Below, piece after piece: positions 3,068-14,920 of a DNA stretch of 14,924 nucleotides. The stretch comes from a virus, in UHGV virus genome UHGV-0149279. One strand, given 5' to 3'. The position numbers and the translations under genes were made by a program. The first letter of the stretch is position 1; every line of letters starts with the position of its first letter. The notes under the pieces are model-generated. The model had not been told where the DNA came from, made no database searches, and saw only the letters and a list, made by a program, of their open reading frames with translations.

Positions 3068-3408
3068 ACCCCTGCCCTCCCCCAAACCATCAATACTCGC
3101 TTCATCGCCGCGCTGTTGCGGCACTCCTGGCAGATCACGTTTGCCTCTGTACGCTGCACCAGCTTCGAATTTCCCTTCGGCATAGCCGGGATTGTTTCTG
3201 GTGCGTATTTCATGCCGTAATCGGTCAGCCGATAAAGCCGCTGTCCGTGCTTGCCTTCGAACTCGATCAGGCCGTCTGCCAGCAGCGTGCTTAACGGGCC
3301 GGAAATCTTTTTTGTGGTCATGCCGATCATGCTGGCAATACGAGCACTATTCAGCCCTGGGTTATTGCGCAGGGCCGCCAGCACCTGCTCACGGATTGTT
3401 ATGGTCAT
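3064..3408 (-). CDS. winged-helix DNA-binding protein (about 114 aa)
   Basis: Track ORF 3064..3456; preferred start MTITIREQVLAALRNNPGLNSARIASMIGMTTKKISGPLSTLLADGLIE (HTH-like) at 3408 overlaps DnaC-like stop (ATGA). C-terminal CQEC motif. Confidence 0.5.
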   Translation of the reverse strand: MTITIREQVLAALRNNPGLNSARIASMIGMTTKKISGPLSTLLADGLIEFEGKHGQRLYRLTDYGMKYAPETIPAMPKGNSKLVQRTEANVICQECRNSAAMKRVLMVWGRAGV

Positions 3409-4259
3409 GCTGCCCCCTTGGAACGGTAAGAATCCCAGGTGAATGACAGCGTGCACCCGCCGCCGTCGCTCATGCGGTCAATAACACGCTCACTCACGAA
3501 CGCTGCCAACTCTTCTTTGGTCTGGTTGCTGATCAGGATGGTCGGCTTCATCCGCTCGTACCGGGTGTTGATGATTTCGAACATGATCAGCTTCTCGGCC
3601 TCGCTGCCGAACTGGACGCCAACCTCGTCGATGATCAAAAGGTCCGGAGTGGTGAAGTGCGCAATCACGTCGTTCTCGCTGCGCGTCGCAGTTTTCGACC
3701 ACGTTGATTTGAACTCACGGGCAATCTTCAGCGCGGTGGTAAAAATTACCGGGCTCTGGTGTTTCTCGATGACATCACGGGCGATCGCCAGGGCAAGGTG
3801 GTTTTTACCGGTTCCCGGCTTGCCGCACATCACCAGACCACCTCCCTGCTTCAGCCGCTCGGGCCACTTAGCGGCATACGCCTGACAAACCCGCAGCGCA
3901 CGTTCTGACTCCTTGCCAACCGGCTGATAGTTTTCCAGCGTGCACGTCACAAAGCGCTCAGGGATTTCGAGCTGACGCAGCAGGCGATCGATGTTCTGCT
4001 GGCGAGTGCGGTCTTCCCAACGCTTTTTCTCGTCATACAGGAAGCTCAGCTCATCGCGAAGGCAGCCCGGACAACGAGTCGGCGGCGACGGCAGCTTGAT
4101 TAGGCTGCTGGTAAGCACGCGTTTACGCTGTTCGTATTCGCCGTGTTTCTCGCAAAGCACCGTTTCGAAGACGGTCTCGCAGTTAGGGAGTTGCTCTGGC
4201 GGCCTGCCGAGAACTTCCAGCATTTTTTCGATAGCGTCGATTTTTTCGAGCAGCTCCAT
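3405..4259 (-). CDS. DnaC-like helicase loader (IstB-like AAA+ ATPase), lambda P functional analogue
   Basis: Walker A GKPGTGKNHLA and Walker B LLIIDEVG; N-terminal Cys pairs; preferred start MELLEKID at 4259 with GAGGG RBS just after O stop (track start 4277). Confidence 0.85.
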   Translation of the reverse strand: MELLEKIDAIEKMLEVLGRPPEQLPNCETVFETVLCEKHGEYEQRKRVLTSSLIKLPSPPTRCPGCLRDELSFLYDEKKRWEDRTRQQNIDRLLRQLEIPERFVTCTLENYQPVGKESERALRVCQAYAAKWPERLKQGGGLVMCGKPGTGKNHLALAIARDVIEKHQSPVIFTTALKIAREFKSTWSKTATRSENDVIAHFTTPDLLIIDEVGVQFGSEAEKLIMFEIINTRYERMKPTILISNQTKEELAAFVSERVIDRMSDGGGCTLSFTWDSYRSKGAA

Positions 4260-4261
4260 AC

Positions 4262-5116
4262 TCAGTCCCTCGCCCATGACGGGATTTCAGTCTGGCCATA
4301 GTCCTTGCCAGCGAAGTTCTCGGATACGCGAGTCTGATTGCGGGCTGGCTGCTTGATGCCTTTCGGTTCAAACAATCCCTGCCAGCCGTTCGCAATGCTC
4401 TGGTTGATGATTTCTTCAGGCTGGTATCCGCTGCACTTGCAACGCTCAAGCAGGTTGATGGCCTGGGTTACCGTCTGCTGAGACTTAATCGGTTTCTTCA
4501 GGTCGCGACGATAATCGACCCATGACTTCCAGACTGAAACTGACAGCCATTCAGGAAGGTCAACACCAGCCGGATCGAACGAAGCCGGTTTGGGGGATTT
4601 AGGGGGTTTATTAATATTGTCTTTATTGTCTTTTGTATGTTTGTCTTTTGTGTTTACCTTATTTGGGTAAGTGTCGTTACCTGATTCGGGTAAACATTCC
4701 TTACCTGATTCAGGTAAATTTACCTCTTTCAGGTAACGTTTATTTTCATTACCTGTTTTTGGTAATTTCACCCATTCACTAACCGTTTTGTTAATGCCGA
4801 CAGAACGCCCGATTTGGGTAAATACTCCACGCTTCACTAACGAGCTTTTAGCAGCAGAGCATTTGTGCGGAAGAATGCCGGTGAGGGCAGATAACTGATC
4901 GTTACTAACCCAGTCAGCTTTTTTGTTGAAACCGTATGTTTTACGCATTACAGCCATGAAGACCAGCAACTGATGCTGAGACAATCCAGCCAGCATGACA
5001 GCCTCCAGAAGTTCATTGGCAATACGCGTATAGCCATCATCAAGATCTGCCACGCGCGGCTCCACGACCTGCAAATCAGGCCTGATTGGTGAGATATTGT
5101 TAATTGCTAAGTTCAT
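4262..5116 (-). CDS. O: replication initiation protein O
   Basis: N-terminus [20 protein letters not shown]...RKTYGFNK matches recalled lambda O ([19 protein letters not shown]...RKTYGWNK). Preferred ATG at 5116 with GGGGAGG RBS (track start 5200). Internal iterons, see repeat feature. Confidence 0.85.
4654..4765. repeat. replication origin iterons: five 17-bp repeats TTACC-N7-GGTAA, with adjacent AT-rich tract at about 4600-4653
   Basis: Copies at about 4654-4670, 4677-4693, 4701-4717, 4720-4736, 4749-4765 (TTACCTTATTTGGGTAA, TTACCTGATTCGGGTAA, TTACCTGATTCAGGTAA, TTACCTCTTTCAGGTAA, TTACCTGTTTTTGGTAA), inside the O coding sequence as in ori-lambda. Coordinates +/-1. Confidence 0.6.
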
Positions 5117-5294
5117 CAGCAGCCTCCCCGCCTTTCTTGAAGATGATTTCGACACAAAGCAGAATGCAGTTATCGCAGATAGCAACGCCTGGACCGGCAA
5201 CTATGGTTTTCACGTCGCTATCGATATTGCTTCTGTCGCAGAAAGAGCATTTATGAGTTGCGTGCTGATTTGCCTTTTCGTTTATTACTGGCAT
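5100..5294 (-). CDS. small ClpX-type C4 zinc-finger (ZBD-like) protein, about 64 aa
   Basis: [28 protein letters not shown] = C-x2-C-x21-C-x2-C with the internal GP, matching the ClpX N-terminal zinc-binding domain pattern (recalled CSFCGK...GP.VYICDEC). Preferred ATG at 5294 with GGGAG RBS (track start 5321 is GTG). 3' end overlaps O start. Confidence 0.55.
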
Positions 5295-5379
5295 ACTTAC
5301 TCCCGTTACTTGGCGTAACACAGTGTGATAAGGGCCTTTGAAGTGACCGCTTCAAGGGCTTTTTCTTTTCTGGTGCCTC

Positions 5380-5925
5380 TCACATGACCCCCAACATCGA
5401 AGTGACCATCGTCATCAGCGGGCCTACCTGCTCCGGCATGAGGCGGAACAGCGACGCTATACCCTCGCTTACCTCTTTCAGCTTCTGATGCTCTGGAGCG
5501 TCCAGCAGCACAGCCTGTTTAGCTTCGGCACACTCTTTCATCGCAGAGGCGATCAGAGACATCGTGTCGTTCTGCGGCGCCAGGCGGTTGCGGTACTCCA
5601 GCGGAAGGACCGACATGATTGCTGGCGCCAGCTGGCGAATGTTGTTGGCGGCGTATTCGGTGTCGCCATCAATCCAGCGAAACACTTTCTGCATCTGGCG
5701 GTGCGAGTCAGTCGGGATATCCAGACCGGTTCCGCCGGACGCCCGCCACTCTTCAACAATCAGCGCTGCGACAAATTCACGGCTGCGGCAGTCAGCTGCC
5801 CAGGCCCGAACAGCTGCGCGGATCCCATCGATGTTTAACGCCGTGGAATCAGGTTCCCGGCGATTCTGGTAAATCATCGCCGCTGGCGAAAATTTGTTAC
5901 CTTGTTGATACGCAAGTGAATGCAT
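5380..5925 (-). CDS. YdaT-like protein (Rac-type, occupies the cII position)
   Basis: Immediately downstream of the cro-like gene. Central segment VFRWIDGDTEYAANNIRQLAPAIMSVLPLEYRNRL resembles my recollection of Rac YdaT; similarity is from memory only. RBS GGGAAAG. Confidence 0.45.
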   Translation of the reverse strand: MHSLAYQQGNKFSPAAMIYQNRREPDSTALNIDGIRAAVRAWAADCRSREFVAALIVEEWRASGGTGLDIPTDSHRQMQKVFRWIDGDTEYAANNIRQLAPAIMSVLPLEYRNRLAPQNDTMSLIASAMKECAEAKQAVLLDAPEHQKLKEVSEGIASLFRLMPEQVGPLMTMVTSMLGVM

Positions 5926-5955: not shown

Positions 5956-6201
5956 TCAGGCGGCTGTCGATTCATTTTTAATTCGGTCAGGGTTTGCAGC
6001 CTGTAGTAGCCACTCTGCCGTAAACTGCCCTTTTGATGCGTCAGCCAAAAGCTGTGAATAGTTGGTTTTCTCTGTGTACTCAGTGCGAGGCAACGCCGCG
6101 TTCTTTACCCACTTGTGAATAGCAACATTCGACAGACCACATAGGCGTGCCGCTGCGGTTTGTCCGCCTACAGCTTCGATTGCAAATTGCATTGGGTTCA
6201 T
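5956..6201 (-). CDS. Cro-like HTH regulator (YdaS family)
   Basis: 81 aa, divergent from cI; AVGGQTAAARLCGLSNVAIHKW fits the YdaS/Cro-type HTH pattern (A..GGQ.A.ARL.G.S...V..W). Confidence 0.65.
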   Translation of the reverse strand: MNPMQFAIEAVGGQTAAARLCGLSNVAIHKWVKNAALPRTEYTEKTNYSQLLADASKGQFTAEWLLQAANPDRIKNESTAA

Positions 6202-6285: not shown

Positions 6286-7053
6286 ATGGTTAAAAAAGAC
6301 GATTTAAAAGAAGAATTCTCGAAGAGACTTCGCGCTGCATTGCTTGATGCTGGCGTGGGTGGGCGTGGGCAGGCTGGCAGGATCAGGGAAGCTATGAAGT
6401 CCCAAGGGATTGCTGTATCTGAGCCCGGGATCTGGAAGTGGCTTAACGCATCAGCAATACCAGACCAAACCAATATCCTTGCACTTAGCCGCTGGCTTGG
6501 GGTTCGCCCTGAGTGGCTGGAATACGGAAGGAATGATCCTGAACCTGAACTGCACAGGGTATCATCCATCCCGCCTGAATCTGAGTGGGGAACTGTCGAC
6601 GCTTGGGACAAAAATACCCCCCTACCTGACGATGAGGTGGAAGTACCGTTTCTGAAGGATATCGAGTTTGCGTGTGGTGATGGGCGTGTTCATAGCGAAG
6701 ATCATAACGGCTTTAAACTGAGGTTCTCCAAGGCAACGCTCAGAAGGGTGGGTGCAAATAGTGATGGTTCTGGAGTGCTTTGCTTTCCCGCTTCTGGTGA
6801 CAGCATGGAGCCCGTTATTCCTGACGGCGCAACGGTAGCAGTCGATACAGGCAACAAGCGGATTATTGACGGCGAACTCTATGCTATTAACCAGGGCGAT
6901 TTAAAGCGCATAAAGCAGCTTTATCGAAAGCCTGGTGGGAAGCTATTAATACGAAGCATCAATCGCGATTATGACGATGAAGAGGCTGATGAGGCAGATG
7001 TCGAGATAATCGGTTTTGTGTTCTGGTACTCGGTATTGCGATATCGCCGATAA
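6286..7053 (+). CDS. cI: CI-type prophage repressor (N-terminal HTH, C-terminal S24 LexA-like peptidase domain)
   Basis: C-terminal GDSMEP (Ser nucleophile) and downstream DLKRIKQLY (Lys) as in LexA/CI autocleaving repressors; N-terminal HTH-like region; divergent from cro-like gene. Confidence 0.85.
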   Translation: MVKKDDLKEEFSKRLRAALLDAGVGGRGQAGRIREAMKSQGIAVSEPGIWKWLNASAIPDQTNILALSRWLGVRPEWLEYGRNDPEPELHRVSSIPPESEWGTVDAWDKNTPLPDDEVEVPFLKDIEFACGDGRVHSEDHNGFKLRFSKATLRRVGANSDGSGVLCFPASGDSMEPVIPDGATVAVDTGNKRIIDGELYAINQGDLKRIKQLYRKPGGKLLIRSINRDYDDEEADEADVEIIGFVFWYSVLRYRR

Positions 7054-7319: not shown

Positions 7320-7799
7320 ATGGATAAAATTAATTACCCACCCCTGTTTGAGCCAGGGCTCCATGACATGGATGAAGCTGGATTAAAATCGTATTGTGTC
7401 GATTGCTTTCCTTCATCATCCAGGCGAGGCATGCTATACTGTAATTTTATACAGCTACTCGAATCTATTCGAGAATTATCTGCTCAATATGGCTGTTTTA
7501 CAGAAATATGGGTTGATGGTTCATACACCACGTCTAAACCAGAGCCTGATGATATTGATATTTTGTTGGTATGTGACTATAGCAATATAAACTCAATACC
7601 TGTCATGCTTCGGGGCCGCGTCGATAATTTGCTTGACCGAAACTACATCAAACAAAACTACAAAATTGATGTCCTACTACTCATGAAGAATTTAGATGAC
7701 CCTAACTATGATTATGAGTACTGGCGTAGCTACTGGCGCGGTTGGTTTGGTTTTGATCGCAGTGAAAACCCGAAAGGGTTAGTGAGGATTTTTTTATGA
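7320..7799 (+). CDS. minimal nucleotidyltransferase-fold (Pol-beta superfamily-like) protein, 159 aa
   Basis: FTEIWVDGSYTTSKPEPDDIDILLV fits hG[GS]-x9-D-x-D-h (compare generic MNT LFGSYARGEATEDSDIDLLV); third acidic residue in a hydrophobic strand at KIDVLLL. AT-rich (roughly 35-42% GC by eye versus above 50% in flanks). RBS AAGG. Family assignment is motif-based inference. Confidence 0.5.
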   Translation: MDKINYPPLFEPGLHDMDEAGLKSYCVDCFPSSSRRGMLYCNFIQLLESIRELSAQYGCFTEIWVDGSYTTSKPEPDDIDILLVCDYSNINSIPVMLRGRVDNLLDRNYIKQNYKIDVLLLMKNLDDPNYDYEYWRSYWRGWFGFDRSENPKGLVRIFL

Positions 7800-8728
7800 A
7801 TGATAAATCAATGTTTAAAAATTGCGATAAACGCATTGATTTCATTCAAAAAGAAGTCGATGCAATGAAGCAAAACAAAACCAGGTCCTTTGCTGACATG
7901 CTTCTTTATCGCTCCATGGATTCTCATCTGAGCGATTTGAAGGCCGAAAAATTAAAGCAAGATAGTCGGCACCCACTTATCGATTTTTTTGAGCTGCGGC
8001 TGAAAGGCTCTGAGGTTGACTTTGGCTCTATTCCTTTAGAGCTGCTTGGGGCTATTTCAACAAATCTTGCAGCGCTAATACAAAGAGCAACACACAAAAT
8101 TGCCTCAGGCAAGGACTCAAAAAAAGTTCCCTACGACGTGAAAAGCTCCTTAAACCTCAGGCTGGCTGATTTATCCCCTGGGTCTACAAAATTGGGCGTC
8201 ACCTTCTCTACAGGAATAGCAGAATTAGTAGAAACAGTACCCAGCAAGGCTGTAAAAGGCATATTCGATTTGTTGTTAAGCGATGACGACAACAACTTCA
8301 TGAATCACGTCGCTGAAATTGGATACAATTCCACTGTAAGCCTTAAGAGAATCGTAGAGGAATGCGATAAACACAACTTAACATTTGATGCAAGTTGGAC
8401 CGGTCCATTTAGTAATGGCACCAAGGTGGCAACTATTGACTCCAATAAAATTAAGTACTTGGTGAGTAGACTTACATCAACCATTTCATCCCCTCCCATT
8501 ACTGAAACGGTTACAGGCGAACTGGTCGTTCTATCCAAATATGGGAAGCTGGAGCTTGATGTTGGTGGTGAACATTTAAAGGCTTCCTATCCGATTGAAA
8601 TGCTAGATTTAATACAAAAAAAACACAAGGTCGGACAGATTGTTTCTCTTTTAGTGGAGACTACTGAGATTCACAATGATCGCATAGGTCTGTACCGTAA
8701 AAACCATCTTGTTAAATCGGTTCTTTAA
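7796..8728 (+). CDS. hypothetical protein, 310 aa, translationally coupled to the upstream NTase-like gene
   Basis: ATGA overlap with upstream stop; AT-rich; no motif I can assign (one R-x4-H match, RSMDSH, near the N-terminus is not sufficient to call HEPN). Confidence 0.6.
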   Translation: MNDKSMFKNCDKRIDFIQKEVDAMKQNKTRSFADMLLYRSMDSHLSDLKAEKLKQDSRHPLIDFFELRLKGSEVDFGSIPLELLGAISTNLAALIQRATHKIASGKDSKKVPYDVKSSLNLRLADLSPGSTKLGVTFSTGIAELVETVPSKAVKGIFDLLLSDDDNNFMNHVAEIGYNSTVSLKRIVEECDKHNLTFDASWTGPFSNGTKVATIDSNKIKYLVSRLTSTISSPPITETVTGELVVLSKYGKLELDVGGEHLKASYPIEMLDLIQKKHKVGQIVSLLVETTEIHNDRIGLYRKNHLVKSVL

Positions 8729-13486: not shown

Positions 13487-13684
13487 ATGGATGATATTTT
13501 GGTAACGTCAGACCTGACCAGTCGCTACAAAATTTCACGCAAAACCCTTTGGTCATGGCAAAGTGCAGACACAATGCCTCGGGGCTTCGTATGCCCGTTC
13601 CCACCCCCTGACTGGCCCGGCAACCCTAACCGCTGGCGCTCTGAGTCAATCAAAGAGTGGGAGGATAAAAAGAAGATAAATTAA
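13487..13684 (+). CDS. xis: AlpA-family excisionase / transcriptional regulator
   Basis: [22 protein letters not shown]...GFVCPFPPP....[11 protein letters not shown] matches the AlpA/Xis HTH pattern; preferred ATG at 13487 with GGAGAG RBS (track start 13442 is TTG); overlaps the convergent integrase 3' end. Confidence 0.65.
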
Positions 13685-14874
13685 CTGAAGGGCTCTCCGA
13701 TGATCTCTTCAAGATGGCTCTGCCAAACGCGGAGCCAGTGTTTCTGATCATCGATATAGTCATGAAGGTTGTAATGCGCCATAACCCCCACCATCTGATG
13801 CCCGAGCAGCTTTTCAATTACGTGCGGCGGGCAACCTAACTCAGAGAGATTTGTGGCTATCGTCCGCCTCATATCATGAAGCGACCACTCTGCCATACCT
13901 GTTCCATTCCAAATAGAACGGGCGTAATTGGATGCCACAGGTGAATGAACGGGCGAATCTTTGATCCCGCCATCAATTTTACGTTGTGAAGTCACCAGGT
14001 GATTGGTGTTTATTTTCTTGAGGTGATTTCTGACCAGGTTAACGGCGGCGTCTGAGAGTCCCCTTCTAATATGTACCCGAGTTTTATAACTGCCCGCAGG
14101 CACGACCCACTCATTATCATCCAATCGAAACCATGATCTCTCACTAAGTCGAATCTCAGCCGTACGGCATCCGGTAAGCATAATAAATTTCACCAGGAAT
14201 ACGGACTCTATCGACATATGGCTTTTCAACCACTGATAGATTTTGCGCAGATCGTCATCGTCCATCCTGCGAGTTCTCTTTTTAGGCTTTTGCCCGACAT
14301 CAGATGGCAGTAATCCCTCGAGTGGGTTTGAGGCGATCACACTTCTGTTAACGCAGAACCTAAACGCCCGTTTGCACAGCGAAAGCATGTAATGAGCCAT
14401 CACCCTGCTTTCTATAGAATCGAAGACGTTGATCCAGTGCATTTTCGCTGTGTTATCGACTTTGACATTCTTCATCGGTTCGGCGATATGTTTCTCAAAC
14501 ACCTGGCGATAGTAATCGACTTTAACTAGCCCGTTAGCGATACAGTGCCTTTCAATCCAGTAATTGAACGCTTCGGCAACGGACATCGCTTCCTGTCGGG
14601 TCTGCTTATCCAGCTTCACCTGCTCTCGCGGATCCAGTCCCTCAGTTAACCAGTTTCTGAATTGTTGGCGACGCTCTCTTGCCTGGGTGATACTCATTGC
14701 AGGATAATCACCAACATTGAGTTTTACCGCTTTACCGGCCCAGCGATACCGATAGAAAAATGATATTTTTCCGGCCTGGCTGATTCTGGCGTTGAGCCCG
14801 TGCGAATCAGAAATAATCTCGATATCATCTCTTTTCTTGCCGAGCGCCTTCCTGAGCTTTGTGTCGGTGATCAT
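13681..14874 (-). CDS. int: tyrosine integrase, P4-like family
   Basis: N-terminal [11 protein letters not shown]...[18 protein letters not shown] and C-terminal HDMRRT...LLGHQ...AHYNL (R/H-x-x-R/Y catalytic signature). Track start 14919 is GTG; internal ATGs at 14889 and 14874, neither with a clear SD, so the start is uncertain. Confidence 0.9.
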
Positions 14875-14879
14875 TGAAT

Positions 14880-14920
14880 GGGTACACATTTTTGTTTTTG
14901 GGTACACAAAAGTGTACACA
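14880..14920. repeat. three direct repeats G(G/T)GTACACA at 14880-14888, 14900-14908, 14912-14920 upstream of / overlapping the int 5' end
   Basis: Seen in sequence; core GTGTACAC is self-complementary. Window ends at 14924, so the array may continue. Confidence 0.45.

What the first reader, a model, noticed from the sequence alone, without database searches (positions are those of the whole stretch)
5100..5294. Phage-encoded ClpX zinc-binding-domain look-alike immediately upstream of, and overlapping, the O gene
Seen: about 64-aa ORF with C-x2-C-x21-C-x2-C and an internal GP, matching the ClpX N-terminal ZBD pattern; its 3' end overlaps the O start. Established: lambda O is a classic ClpXP substrate and the ClpX ZBD mediates adaptor and substrate recognition. 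Inference: a free ZBD could act as a decoy or competitor that modulates ClpXP-dependent turnover of O or other phage or host proteins during replication.
Basis: partly seen in the sequence, partly recalled or inferred. Interest (0 to 1): 0.55.

Follow-up and report, generated by a model that had tools for sequence, protein, structure and literature searches.

The report
Phage copy of ClpX docking domain
A prophage carries a tiny stand-alone copy of the zinc-binding "docking" domain of the host protease motor ClpX, placed directly in front of its DNA-replication initiator gene. It most likely acts as a decoy that keeps ClpXP from destroying the initiator or other clients, though this has not been tested.

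Summary
Window 5100-5294 on the minus strand encodes a 64-aa protein. It matches Pfam zf-C4_ClpX (45.5 bits, cutoff 27). An alignment-based AlphaFold model superposes on ClpX ZBD crystal structures at 0.6-0.9 Å. Two corrections: the cysteine spacing is CxxC-x20-CxxC, not x21, and the gene is on the minus strand.

The ORF overlaps the start of a Phage_rep_O gene by 17 nt. It belongs to a family of 59-69-aa proteins under purifying selection (median dN/dS 0.20). In 85 of 88 enterobacterial prophage loci this gene lies within -44 to +17 nt of the replication initiator. The initiator belongs to five different N-domain classes.

The gene uses the ribosome-binding site and ATG slot that O occupies in lambda. 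O homologues without the ZBD gene keep lambda's N-terminal ClpX degron. ZBD-linked O proteins carry a different N-terminus.

The docking-patch residues F16 and I46 are conserved. Purified ClpX ZBD is already known to inhibit ClpXP in trans in vitro. A ClpXP decoy is therefore the best-supported mechanism, with confidence about 0.45, and it is untested. The domain is already annotated in databases, but I found no functional study. I class it as a new variant of a known kind, of moderate interest.

The parts
5100..5294 (-). Stand-alone ClpX-ZBD homologue, 64 aa plus stop
   Evidence: Translation. Pfam zf-C4_ClpX 45.5 bits. PDB ClpX ZBD hits. AF2 model with pLDDT 77 superposes on 2ds5/2ds6/2ds8 at rmsd 0.6-0.9 Å. 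Family median dN/dS 0.20.
5300..5304 (-). Shine-Dalgarno GGGAG of the ZBD gene. Together with the ATG it is homologous to the RBS/ATG that lambda uses for O.
   Evidence: Sequence. Alignment with lambda cII-O junction: ACAGGAGTCATTATG against ACGGGAGTAAGTATG.
5238..5249 (-). First zinc knuckle, C16-S-F-C19. F18 corresponds to ClpX F16 of the docking patch.
   Evidence: F is invariant in 53 of 53 family members.
5166..5177 (-). Second zinc knuckle, C40-D-N-C43
   Evidence: Invariant among the intact family members.
5100..5116 (-). 17-nt overlap between the ZBD 3' end and the O start codon. The O Shine-Dalgarno GGGGAGG at 5123-5129 lies inside the ZBD gene. This is a translational-coupling arrangement.
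   Evidence: The same -17 overlap occurs in 18 loci, and 85 of 88 loci have a gap of -44 to +17.
4262..5116 (-). Replication initiator, lambda-O family, 284 aa
   Evidence: Pfam Phage_rep_O E=1.4e-33. TIGR01610. PHROG 678.
5060..5092 (-). O residues 9-19, [11 protein letters not shown]. This N-terminal segment is specific to ZBD-linked O proteins and replaces the lambda-type degron. It weakly resembles the SspB XB peptide RGGRPALRVVK.
   Evidence: The shuffle test gives only about 1% for the first 30 aa. XB sequence from PMC3983244.
5330..5373 (+). Intrinsic terminator on the opposite strand (15-bp stem plus T tract), at the position of the lambda oop terminator between ydaT and the ZBD gene
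   Evidence: Homologous hairpins in related loci. Alignment with the lambda oop region.
5380..5925 (-). YdaT / CII-like activator gene, upstream neighbour in the same operon
   Evidence: Pfam YdaT_toxin E=2e-27. PHROG 163 CII-like.
3405..4277 (-). DnaC-like helicase loader, downstream of O
   Evidence: Pfam IstB_IS21/Bac_DnaA. PHROG 50.

Best explanation
The ORF is a real gene for a free-standing copy of the N-terminal zinc-binding docking domain (ZBD) of ClpX. It is the first gene of the prophage replication module. It is transcribed with cro/ydaT from the early rightward operon and is translationally coupled to the replication initiator O. Most likely mechanism (inferred): the small protein folds like the ClpX ZBD and keeps its hydrophobic ligand patch. 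As a soluble mimic it would compete with the ZBDs on the ClpX hexamer for ligands that must dock there, namely the phage initiator and adaptors such as SspB or RssB. This would lower ClpXP-dependent turnover while the phage replicates. Shown here: identity, fold, conservation, synteny and coupling. Inferred: zinc binding, dimerisation, ligand binding and any effect on proteolysis.
For: Identity and fold: Pfam zf-C4_ClpX at 45.5 bits against a cutoff of 27; ClpX ZBD chains are the only significant PDB sequence hits; the top 8 Foldseek hits are all ClpX ZBD, with rmsd 0.6-0.9 Å over 39-40 columns and target-normalised TM 0.81-0.86.

Real gene: 53 distinct intact coding sequences give a median dN/dS of 0.20, and the cysteines are invariant.

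Ligand patch: ClpX F16 and I46 form the patch that overlaps the lambda-O site; SspB and RssB bind the same hydrophobic region (PMC7804408). They correspond to F18 (53/53) and I50 (I in 44 of 53, otherwise M/V/L).

Precedent: purified ClpX ZBD added in trans inhibits RssB-mediated sigma-S degradation (PMC7226468, section 3.1). Lambda O is not degraded without the ZBD (PMC7804408). The XB peptide that occupies the ZBD blocks lambda-O degradation (PMC3983244). Lambda RexB already shows that a lambdoid phage can inhibit ClpXP to stabilise O (PMC11077077).

Link to replication: in 85 of 88 loci the gene lies -44 to +17 nt from the initiator, across five initiator N-domain classes and three loader types. 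It occupies the RBS/ATG slot that O has in lambda.

Cassette behaviour: an E. coli relative with an 82% identical O lacks the ZBD gene and differs only in the first ~18 O residues.
Against: No binding or degradation data exist, and no complex prediction could be run.

The O protein here lacks the lambda-O N-terminal degron (MTNTAKILNFGR), which 72 ZBD-less homologues keep. Whether this O is a ClpXP substrate is therefore unknown.

The initiators that follow the ZBD gene are not homologous in their N-domains. A specific ZBD-initiator contact would have to have evolved several times, or the link may only reflect position and timing.

The family differs from ClpX at conserved positions: LLY to THK before the first Cys, Y34 to S/A/C, and D41/N44/R48 to F/V/F on one helix face. 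Its ligand spectrum may therefore differ from that of ClpX.

Three O proteins with the same 'PIRP' N-terminus have no ZBD gene. The ZBD gene is decaying in a few prophages, so it is dispensable.
Confidence: 0.45

Rival explanations
1. ClpXP-independent partner of the initiator. The zinc ribbon binds the freshly made initiator, which is made in equal amounts through translational coupling. It acts as a holdase or assembly factor at the origin, using the peptide-binding surface inherited from ClpX but with no effect on proteolysis.
For: Overlap or a 14-17-nt spacing with the initiator in 85 of 88 loci. ZBD sub-types track initiator types. ZBD plus the first ~18 O codons are inherited as one block. 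There is a family-specific hydrophobic helix face absent from ClpX. From my own knowledge, ClpX itself has chaperone activity on lambda O (Wawrzynow et al. 1995).
Against: The initiator N-domains are unrelated in five classes, so there is no common target sequence. Co-inheritance of overlapping genes is expected from linkage alone. The gene is absent from most close relatives, which replicate without it.
Confidence: 0.2
2. Specificity modifier of ClpX. The phage ZBD docks on ClpX or forms mixed dimers with the ClpX N-domain. It would redirect the protease, for instance towards a host or phage protein, rather than simply titrating ligands.
For: From my own knowledge, the ClpX ZBD is a constitutive dimer (Wojtyra 2003, Donaldson 2003). 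The fold is conserved. The extra hydrophobic stripe at helix positions equivalent to ClpX 41/44/48 could be a new interface.
Against: No adaptor-like second domain or cargo-binding module is present in 64 aa. Pre-formed ClpX ZBD dimers are very stable, so exchange is unlikely. There are no data.
Confidence: 0.13
3. General host-takeover or anti-defence decoy. The relevant clients are host proteins such as sigma-S, antitoxins, LexA or repressor fragments, or FtsZ. The position in front of the initiator only provides early expression.
For: Free ZBD stabilises sigma-S in vitro (PMC7226468). RexB blocks ClpXP/ClpAP degradation of the antitoxins Phd and MazE as well as O (PMC11077077). In Pseudomonas D3-like phages and in phage P88, stand-alone ZBD genes lie in the early region but not next to the initiator. 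Association with unrelated initiators fits a target outside the replication module.
Against: The very tight and conserved coupling to the initiator in enterobacterial lambdoids. No PADLOC hit.
Confidence: 0.15
4. Non-functional remnant of a captured clpX 5' end, or a spurious ORF.
For: A few copies have lost a cysteine, carry a deletion or are truncated (L016, L048, L054, L056, L004, L077). One GenBank record annotates the opposite strand instead.
Against: Median dN/dS is 0.20 over 602 pairs. The zinc ligands are invariant. The family is 40-60% diverged yet keeps its length across many genera. It has its own Shine-Dalgarno sequence. It is only ~45% identical to the E. coli ClpX ZBD (the reference used for the enterobacterial host), so it is not a recent capture.
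Confidence: 0.02

Closest known systems
[quoted passage not shown]
   Same: Four-cysteine treble-clef fold with a beta-hairpin and a C-terminal helix. About 45% identity. The CSFC...AGPxVxIC..C motif is shared. The F16 and I46 patch residues are conserved.
   Different: No AAA+ module follows: NCBIfam ClpX equivalog scores are 33-34 bits against cutoffs of 359-371. This member has a two-residue insertion in the knuckle-to-hairpin loop (x20 against x18). The family is invariant for T-H-K/R before the first Cys where ClpX has L-L-Y. Y34 becomes S/A/C. Three polar helix positions (D41, N44, R48) become F/L, V and F. It is encoded by a prophage.
Lambda RexB as inhibitor of ClpXP/ClpAP degradation of O, Phd and MazE
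   Same: If the decoy model is right, the outcome is the same: a lambdoid phage protects its initiator, and possibly antitoxins, from Clp proteolysis (PMC11077077, introduction).
   Different: RexB is a membrane protein expressed from the immunity region and is unrelated in sequence. Pfam finds only PF06689 in this ORF. The mechanisms would differ: domain mimicry here, unknown for RexB.
Anti-adaptors IraD/IraM/IraP and the SspB XB peptide (competitive blockers of ZBD-dependent delivery)
   Same: These act by competition at the adaptor-ZBD docking step of ClpXP (PMC7226468, PMC3983244).
   Different: They bind the adaptor or the ZBD. This protein would instead imitate the ZBD itself. There is no sequence relationship.
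Stand-alone and tandem ZBD proteins in other phages and metagenomes (PHROGs 12435, 6797, 5259, 20296; Pseudomonas phages phi1, BUCT566 and PP9W2; Bacillus phage G gp258)
   Same: The same domain occurs as a small free protein encoded in early or replication-proximal regions of temperate phages.
   Different: Those genes are not directly upstream of the initiator. Many metagenomic relatives carry 2-5 tandem ZBDs. No function is reported for any of them.

Membership tests
ClpX-type zinc-binding domain (Pfam PF06689 zf-C4_ClpX) | Profile match above the curated gathering score | tested here: met
   45.5 bits against a cutoff of 27, E=7e-12, covering profile positions 2-38 of 39.
ClpX-type zinc-binding domain (Pfam PF06689 zf-C4_ClpX) | Four cysteine zinc ligands arranged CxxC...CxxC | tested here: met
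   C16, C19, C40 and C43 with a 20-residue spacer (ClpX has 18). They are invariant in the intact family members.
ClpX-type zinc-binding domain (Pfam PF06689 zf-C4_ClpX) | Treble-clef fold: beta-hairpin packed on a C-terminal helix | tested here: met
   AF2 model built with a 54-sequence alignment: pLDDT 77 overall and 85-92 over residues 11-50, strands 31-34 and 37-40, helix from residue 41. Foldseek rmsd 0.6-0.9 Å to 2ds5/2ds6/2ds8. This is a prediction, not a solved structure.
ClpX-type zinc-binding domain (Pfam PF06689 zf-C4_ClpX) | Hydrophobic ligand patch (ClpX F16, I46), reported to overlap the lambda-O binding site and to be the region bound by SspB and RssB; mutating F16 or I46 abolishes trigger-factor enhancement | tested here: met
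   The aligned residues are F18 (53/53) and I50 (44/53 I, otherwise M/V/L). The role of this patch is taken from PMC7804408. Only sequence conservation was tested, not binding.
ClpX-type zinc-binding domain (Pfam PF06689 zf-C4_ClpX) | Zinc binding and constitutive dimer formation | not testable with these tools
   Needs metal analysis and SEC/NMR, or a multimer prediction. The structure-prediction quota allowed monomers only.
ClpX unfoldase (NCBIfam NF003745 / TIGR00382) | ZBD followed by an AAA+ ATPase module; whole-protein score above the equivalog cutoff | tested here: not met
   34.2 and 33.1 bits against cutoffs of 359 and 371. Only the first ~46 profile positions match, and the ORF ends after 64 aa. 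It is not a ClpX.
Phage-encoded inhibitors of host ATP-dependent proteases (functional class, e.g. lambda RexB) | Demonstrated inhibition of degradation of a defined substrate | not testable with these tools
   Requires pulse-chase or in-vitro ClpXP assays. The only available support is the precedent with isolated ClpX ZBD (PMC7226468).
Phage-encoded inhibitors of host ATP-dependent proteases (functional class, e.g. lambda RexB) | Sequence relationship to a known inhibitor | tested here: not met
   Pfam, PHROGs, NCBIfam and PADLOC return only ClpX-ZBD-type families or nothing.
Lambda-O-type replication initiator (downstream gene, Pfam PF04492) | N-terminal origin-binding domain profile match | tested here: met
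   115.7 bits, E=1.4e-33. TIGR01610 at 87 bits against a cutoff of 45.5.
Lambda-O-type replication initiator (downstream gene, Pfam PF04492) | Lambda-type N-terminal ClpX recognition sequence (MTNTAKILNFGR) | tested here: not met
   The window O starts [12 protein letters not shown]. By contrast, 72 ZBD-less homologues start M[AS]NTAE[VI].NFP. Degron sequence from PMC7804408.

The most novel reading that the evidence does not exclude
The ZBD gene and the first ~18 codons of O may form a two-part protease-evasion cassette. In this reading the phage replaced the lambda-type N-degron of its initiator with a tail resembling the SspB XB peptide (RPxLxVV). It also co-expresses, by translational coupling, a private mimic of the ClpX docking domain that captures this tail. 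The initiator would then be hidden from, or released in a timed manner to, ClpXP. This would be the first case of a virus copying the substrate-docking domain of a host AAA+ protease as a decoy.
Probability: 0.2. Interest if true: 0.75.

Novelty: new variant of a known kind. Interest (0 to 1): 0.55.

Why it matters
Phage control of host proteases is known from only a few cases: lambda CIII against FtsH, T4 PinA against Lon, and RexB against Clp. None of these works by copying the protease's own substrate-docking domain.

If this 64-aa protein is a ClpX N-domain decoy, it would be a natural, genetically encoded and selective inhibitor of the adaptor- and ZBD-dependent branch of ClpXP. Such a protein would be useful as a tool to separate ZBD-dependent from ssrA-type degradation in vivo. 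It would also add a regulatory layer to lambdoid replication control.

The family is common in Enterobacter, Klebsiella, Citrobacter, Salmonella and Serratia prophages. It is small and easy to express, and the needed assays (ClpXP degradation, O half-life) already exist. The hypothesis is therefore cheap to test.

Tried and rejected
- **Single-sequence AlphaFold run.** It gave an unusable model with pLDDT 43. It was replaced by an alignment-based run.
- **First word-indexed protein search.** It returned only 3 near-identical hits. The exhaustive search and a profile search were needed.
- **DNA-level search of 5,426 complete E. coli genomes with the ORF.** No match. This says little, because family members are only 40-60% identical as proteins.
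- **Rfam scan of the window.** No family found, including nothing for the oop-like element.
- **PADLOC.** No defence-system model matches the ZBD protein.
- **Literature searches for a studied stand-alone phage ZBD.** Five queries found nothing relevant. The one hit for 'ClpX C4-type zinc finger' plus prophage only mentions discarding a contig. Three primary ZBD papers (Wojtyra 2003; Thibault 2006, PNAS and EMBO J.) are not held.
- **Strict pairing of the ZBD with a particular O N-terminus.** Rejected as a rule. L212, L220 and L227 have the PIRP N-terminus without a ZBD gene, and L025 and L031 have a ZBD gene with a lambda-like N-terminus.
- **Similarity of O residues 9-19 to the SspB XB peptide.** Kept only as a lead. 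13% of whole-protein shuffles and 1% of first-30-residue shuffles reach the same score.
- **The acidic C-terminal tail of the ZBD protein (…DELSN, …DEPSA, …NEPGV).** Considered as a motif, but it is better explained by the overlap with the O Shine-Dalgarno sequence, ATG and first codons.
- **Conservation of the ZBD N-terminal residues (K-A/V-N).** This may likewise reflect the antisense oop promoter rather than protein function.

Full report
**1. What is in the sequence**

The finding's coordinates are correct, but the gene lies on the minus strand. The ORF runs from ATG 5294 to TAA 5100 and encodes 64 residues: [64 protein letters not shown]. A GGGAG Shine-Dalgarno sequence sits 5 nt upstream of the ATG.

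The cysteines are C16, C19, C40 and C43. The pattern is therefore C-x2-C-x20-C-x2-C, not x21; E. coli ClpX has x18.

The stop codon lies 17 nt inside the next gene (ATG at 5116). That gene's own GGGGAGG Shine-Dalgarno sequence (5129-5123) lies inside the ZBD coding sequence. This is a typical translational-coupling layout.

**2. Identity**

- Pfam gives zf-C4_ClpX with E=7e-12 and 45.5 bits against a cutoff of 27.
- The only significant PDB sequence hits are ClpX N-domains: 6sfw, 1ovx, 2ds5 and others, with E=4e-8 to 2e-5.
- A single-sequence AlphaFold model was useless, with pLDDT 43.
- A model built on 54 family members has pLDDT 77 overall and 85-92 over residues 11-50.
- The eight best Foldseek matches to that model are all ClpX ZBD structures. 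Rmsd is 0.6-0.9 Å over 39-40 columns, and target-normalised TM is 0.81-0.86. All other matches have E>1.
- The protein is not a ClpX. It ends after the domain, and the NCBIfam ClpX equivalog scores are 33-34 bits against cutoffs of about 360-370.

**3. Context**

The window is the early region of a lambdoid prophage, apparently of Enterobacter or Pseudocitrobacter type. Its genes are:
- integrase (13681-14919, minus strand)
- RecT and YqaJ
- CI-like S24 repressor (6286-7053, plus strand)
- on the minus strand, YdaS/Cro-like (5956-6201), YdaT/CII-like (5380-5925), the ZBD gene, a Phage_rep_O initiator (4262-5116) and a DnaC-like loader (3405-4277)

No minus-strand promoter or terminator was predicted between ydaT and the ZBD gene. 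The gene therefore reads as part of the early rightward operon.

**4. It is a real, conserved gene family**

Profile and exhaustive searches found many 59-69-aa homologues in Enterobacter, Klebsiella, Citrobacter, Salmonella, Serratia, Raoultella, Kluyvera, Pluralibacter, Leclercia and Escherichia. NCBI often already names them 'ClpX C4-type zinc finger protein'.

I analysed 88 loci taken from viral contigs, genomes and phage records.
- 53 distinct intact coding sequences give a median pairwise dN/dS of 0.20. 98% of 602 pairs fall below 0.5.
- Invariant or nearly invariant positions: T13, H14, K/R15, the four Cys, F18, N23, G37, I40, V49, F53.
- A few copies are decaying, through Cys to Ser/Trp/Tyr changes, a 7-aa deletion or truncation. 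The gene is therefore dispensable in resident prophages.

**5. Pairing with the initiator**

In 85 of 88 loci the ZBD stop lies between -44 and +17 nt from the ATG of the next gene. That next gene is always a replication initiator by PHROG or Pfam annotation, but it belongs to five different N-domain classes:

| Initiator class | Loci |
|---|---|
| Phage_rep_O with a 'PIRP' N-terminus | 21 |
| Phage_rep_O with a lambda-like N-terminus | 2 |
| HTH_36/DnaD_N type | 6 |
| DUF1376 type | 3 |
| PHROG 1701 type, two sub-classes | 56 |

The loader that follows is DnaC-like, DnaB-like or lambda-P-like. The upstream gene is YdaT or a true CII. The association is thus with the initiator slot of the replication module, not with lambda O as such.

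In Pseudomonas D3-like phages and in the P2-like phage P88, stand-alone ZBD genes lie in the same early region but 1-2 kb from the initiator.

**6. How the gene sits in the lambda architecture**

I aligned the lambda cII-O junction with this window and related loci. The oop region is conserved, including its terminator hairpin. In the window this is the plus-strand terminator at 5330-5373.

The Shine-Dalgarno/ATG that starts O in lambda (ACAGGAGTCATTATG) is the one that starts the ZBD gene here (ACGGGAGTAAGTATG). The ZBD gene has therefore taken O's initiation site, and O is now coupled behind it.

The likely oop promoter -10 element (CATACT or CATAAT) overlaps the ZBD start codon on the other strand. 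This may explain part of the conservation of the ZBD N-terminal residues.

**7. The O N-terminus changes together with the ZBD gene**

An E. coli prophage (ET245) has the same ydaT-O-loader module, with an O that is 82% identical, but no ZBD gene. Homology breaks right after the ydaT stop codon and resumes at O residue ~19.

Among 80 O homologues retrieved from viral contigs:
- 72 have no ZBD gene and start M[AS]NTAE[VI].NFP. This is almost the lambda sequence MTNTAKILNFGR, which is required for recognition of lambda O by ClpXP (PMC7804408).
- All Phage_rep_O initiators behind a ZBD gene, except L025 and L031, start M[NS]LA..K[IV][ST]PIRPxL[QE]VVE, even when the rest of the protein is only 34-48% identical.
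- The rule is not strict: three 'PIRP' O proteins have no ZBD gene (L212, L220, L227).

The segment RPDLQVVE resembles the SspB XB peptide RGGRPALRVVK, which binds the ClpX ZBD (PMC3983244). The shared pattern is RPxLxVV. However, 13% of whole-protein shuffles and 1% of first-30-residue shuffles score as well. I treat this as a lead, not as evidence.

**8. Mechanism**

Established facts, taken from papers:
- Lambda O is not degraded by ClpX lacking the ZBD.
- The F16/I46 hydrophobic patch overlaps the lambda-O site, and SspB and RssB bind the same hydrophobic region; mutating F16 or I46 abolishes trigger-factor enhancement (PMC7804408).
- The XB peptide blocks degradation of lambda O and FtsZ (PMC3983244).
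- Isolated ClpX ZBD added in trans inhibits RssB-mediated sigma-S degradation (PMC7226468).
- Lambda RexB inhibits Clp-dependent degradation of O, Phd and MazE (PMC11077077).

Shown here: the phage protein keeps the fold and the two patch residues, and it is made together with the initiator.

Inferred: it acts as a soluble competitor for ZBD ligands and lowers ClpXP-dependent turnover during replication. My confidence in this is about 0.45.

The family also has its own features. THK replaces ClpX LLY before the first Cys. Y34 becomes S/A/C. D41, N44 and R48 become F/L, V and F, at positions i, i+3 and i+7 on one helix face, which is polar in ClpX. This suggests an additional or altered interface.

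That altered interface keeps the rivals alive:
- a ClpXP-independent initiator partner (0.20)
- a modifier that docks on ClpX (0.13)
- a decoy whose real clients are host proteins (0.15)
- a non-functional remnant, essentially excluded by the selection analysis (0.02)

**9. Novelty**

The domain family and the stand-alone proteins are already in databases: Pfam, PHROG 12435 (labelled 'protease'), and NCBI names. The existence of the gene is therefore not new.

I found no paper on the function of a stand-alone phage ZBD. As far as I could find, the following are not described:
- the fixed position in front of the initiator across unrelated initiator families
- the take-over of O's initiation site
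- the coupled change of the O N-terminal degron

I class the finding as a new variant of a known kind, with moderate interest (0.55). The hypothesis is specific, cheap to test and would add a new type of phage protease countermeasure, but it is so far only inference.

Noticed in passing
window 7320-8728 (+): Two genes directly downstream of the CI-like repressor match the PADLOC candidate defence system PDC-M63: a DUF6932 protein (7320-7799) to component A at E=4e-41, and a 310-aa protein (7796-8728) to component B at E=7.5e-45. This is probably a lysogen-expressed defence gene pair carried as prophage accessory cargo.
   Followed up: partly
window 5330-5373 (+); related loci L001, L019-L021, L025, L086, L089: A strong terminator hairpin with a T tract points against the early operon, between ydaT/cII and the ZBD gene. 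It aligns with the lambda oop terminator and oop region. The likely oop promoter -10 (CATACT/CATAAT) overlaps the ZBD start codon, so an oop-like antisense RNA would start at the ZBD ribosome-binding site. No Rfam family matched.
   Followed up: partly
window 5060-5116 (-), O residues 1-19; loci L165-L244: O homologues fall into two N-terminal types. The lambda-like type, M[AS]NTAE[VI].NFP, is found in 72 loci, none with a ZBD gene. The other type is M[NS]LA..K.[ST]PIRPxLxVVE. The recombination breakpoint relative to E. coli ET245 lies inside O at about residue 18.
   Followed up: yes
window 5060-5092 (-): O residues 9-19 ([11 protein letters not shown]) share RPxLxVV with the SspB XB peptide RGGRPALRVVK, which binds the ClpX ZBD. 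Shuffle tests show the similarity is weak: about 1% for the first 30 residues.
   Followed up: partly
L001 4004-4159 (MK416022.1); P0001: There are annotation problems in public records. Klebsiella phage ST846-OXA48phi9.2 annotates a hypothetical protein on the wrong strand over the ZBD gene. One Enterobacter hormaechei entry extends the protein to 94 aa and calls it 'ATP-dependent protease ATP-binding subunit ClpX'.
   Followed up: no
L016, L048, L054, L056, L004, L077: These are degenerate copies of the ZBD gene: first Cys to Ser, fourth Cys to Trp or Tyr, a 7-residue deletion of the hairpin, or truncation after the first knuckle. The three copies in front of DUF1376-type initiators all lack the fourth Cys.
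   Followed up: partly
proteins P0004-P0152: Most of the closest non-enterobacterial relatives in the 1.8-billion-protein library are proteins with 2-5 tandem ClpX-type ZBDs and no ATPase domain. I did not examine this architecture.
   Followed up: no
L001, L027, L048, L086 (initiator C-termini): Initiators with unrelated N-domains, all followed by a ~244-249-aa DnaC-like loader, end in a shared tail: ...S(Q/R)P...IPxGF(R/T)G. This is possibly a loader-docking motif. The window O, which has a 290-aa loader, ends differently (...EIPSWARD).
   Followed up: no
L212 ~800-1500: In one viral contig a ParB/Srx-like protein, instead of a ZBD protein, ends overlapping a 'PIRP'-type O start. Its tail (…GGGDESCV) resembles ZBD tails. 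This is consistent with the tail sequence being dictated by the overlap with the O start region.
   Followed up: no
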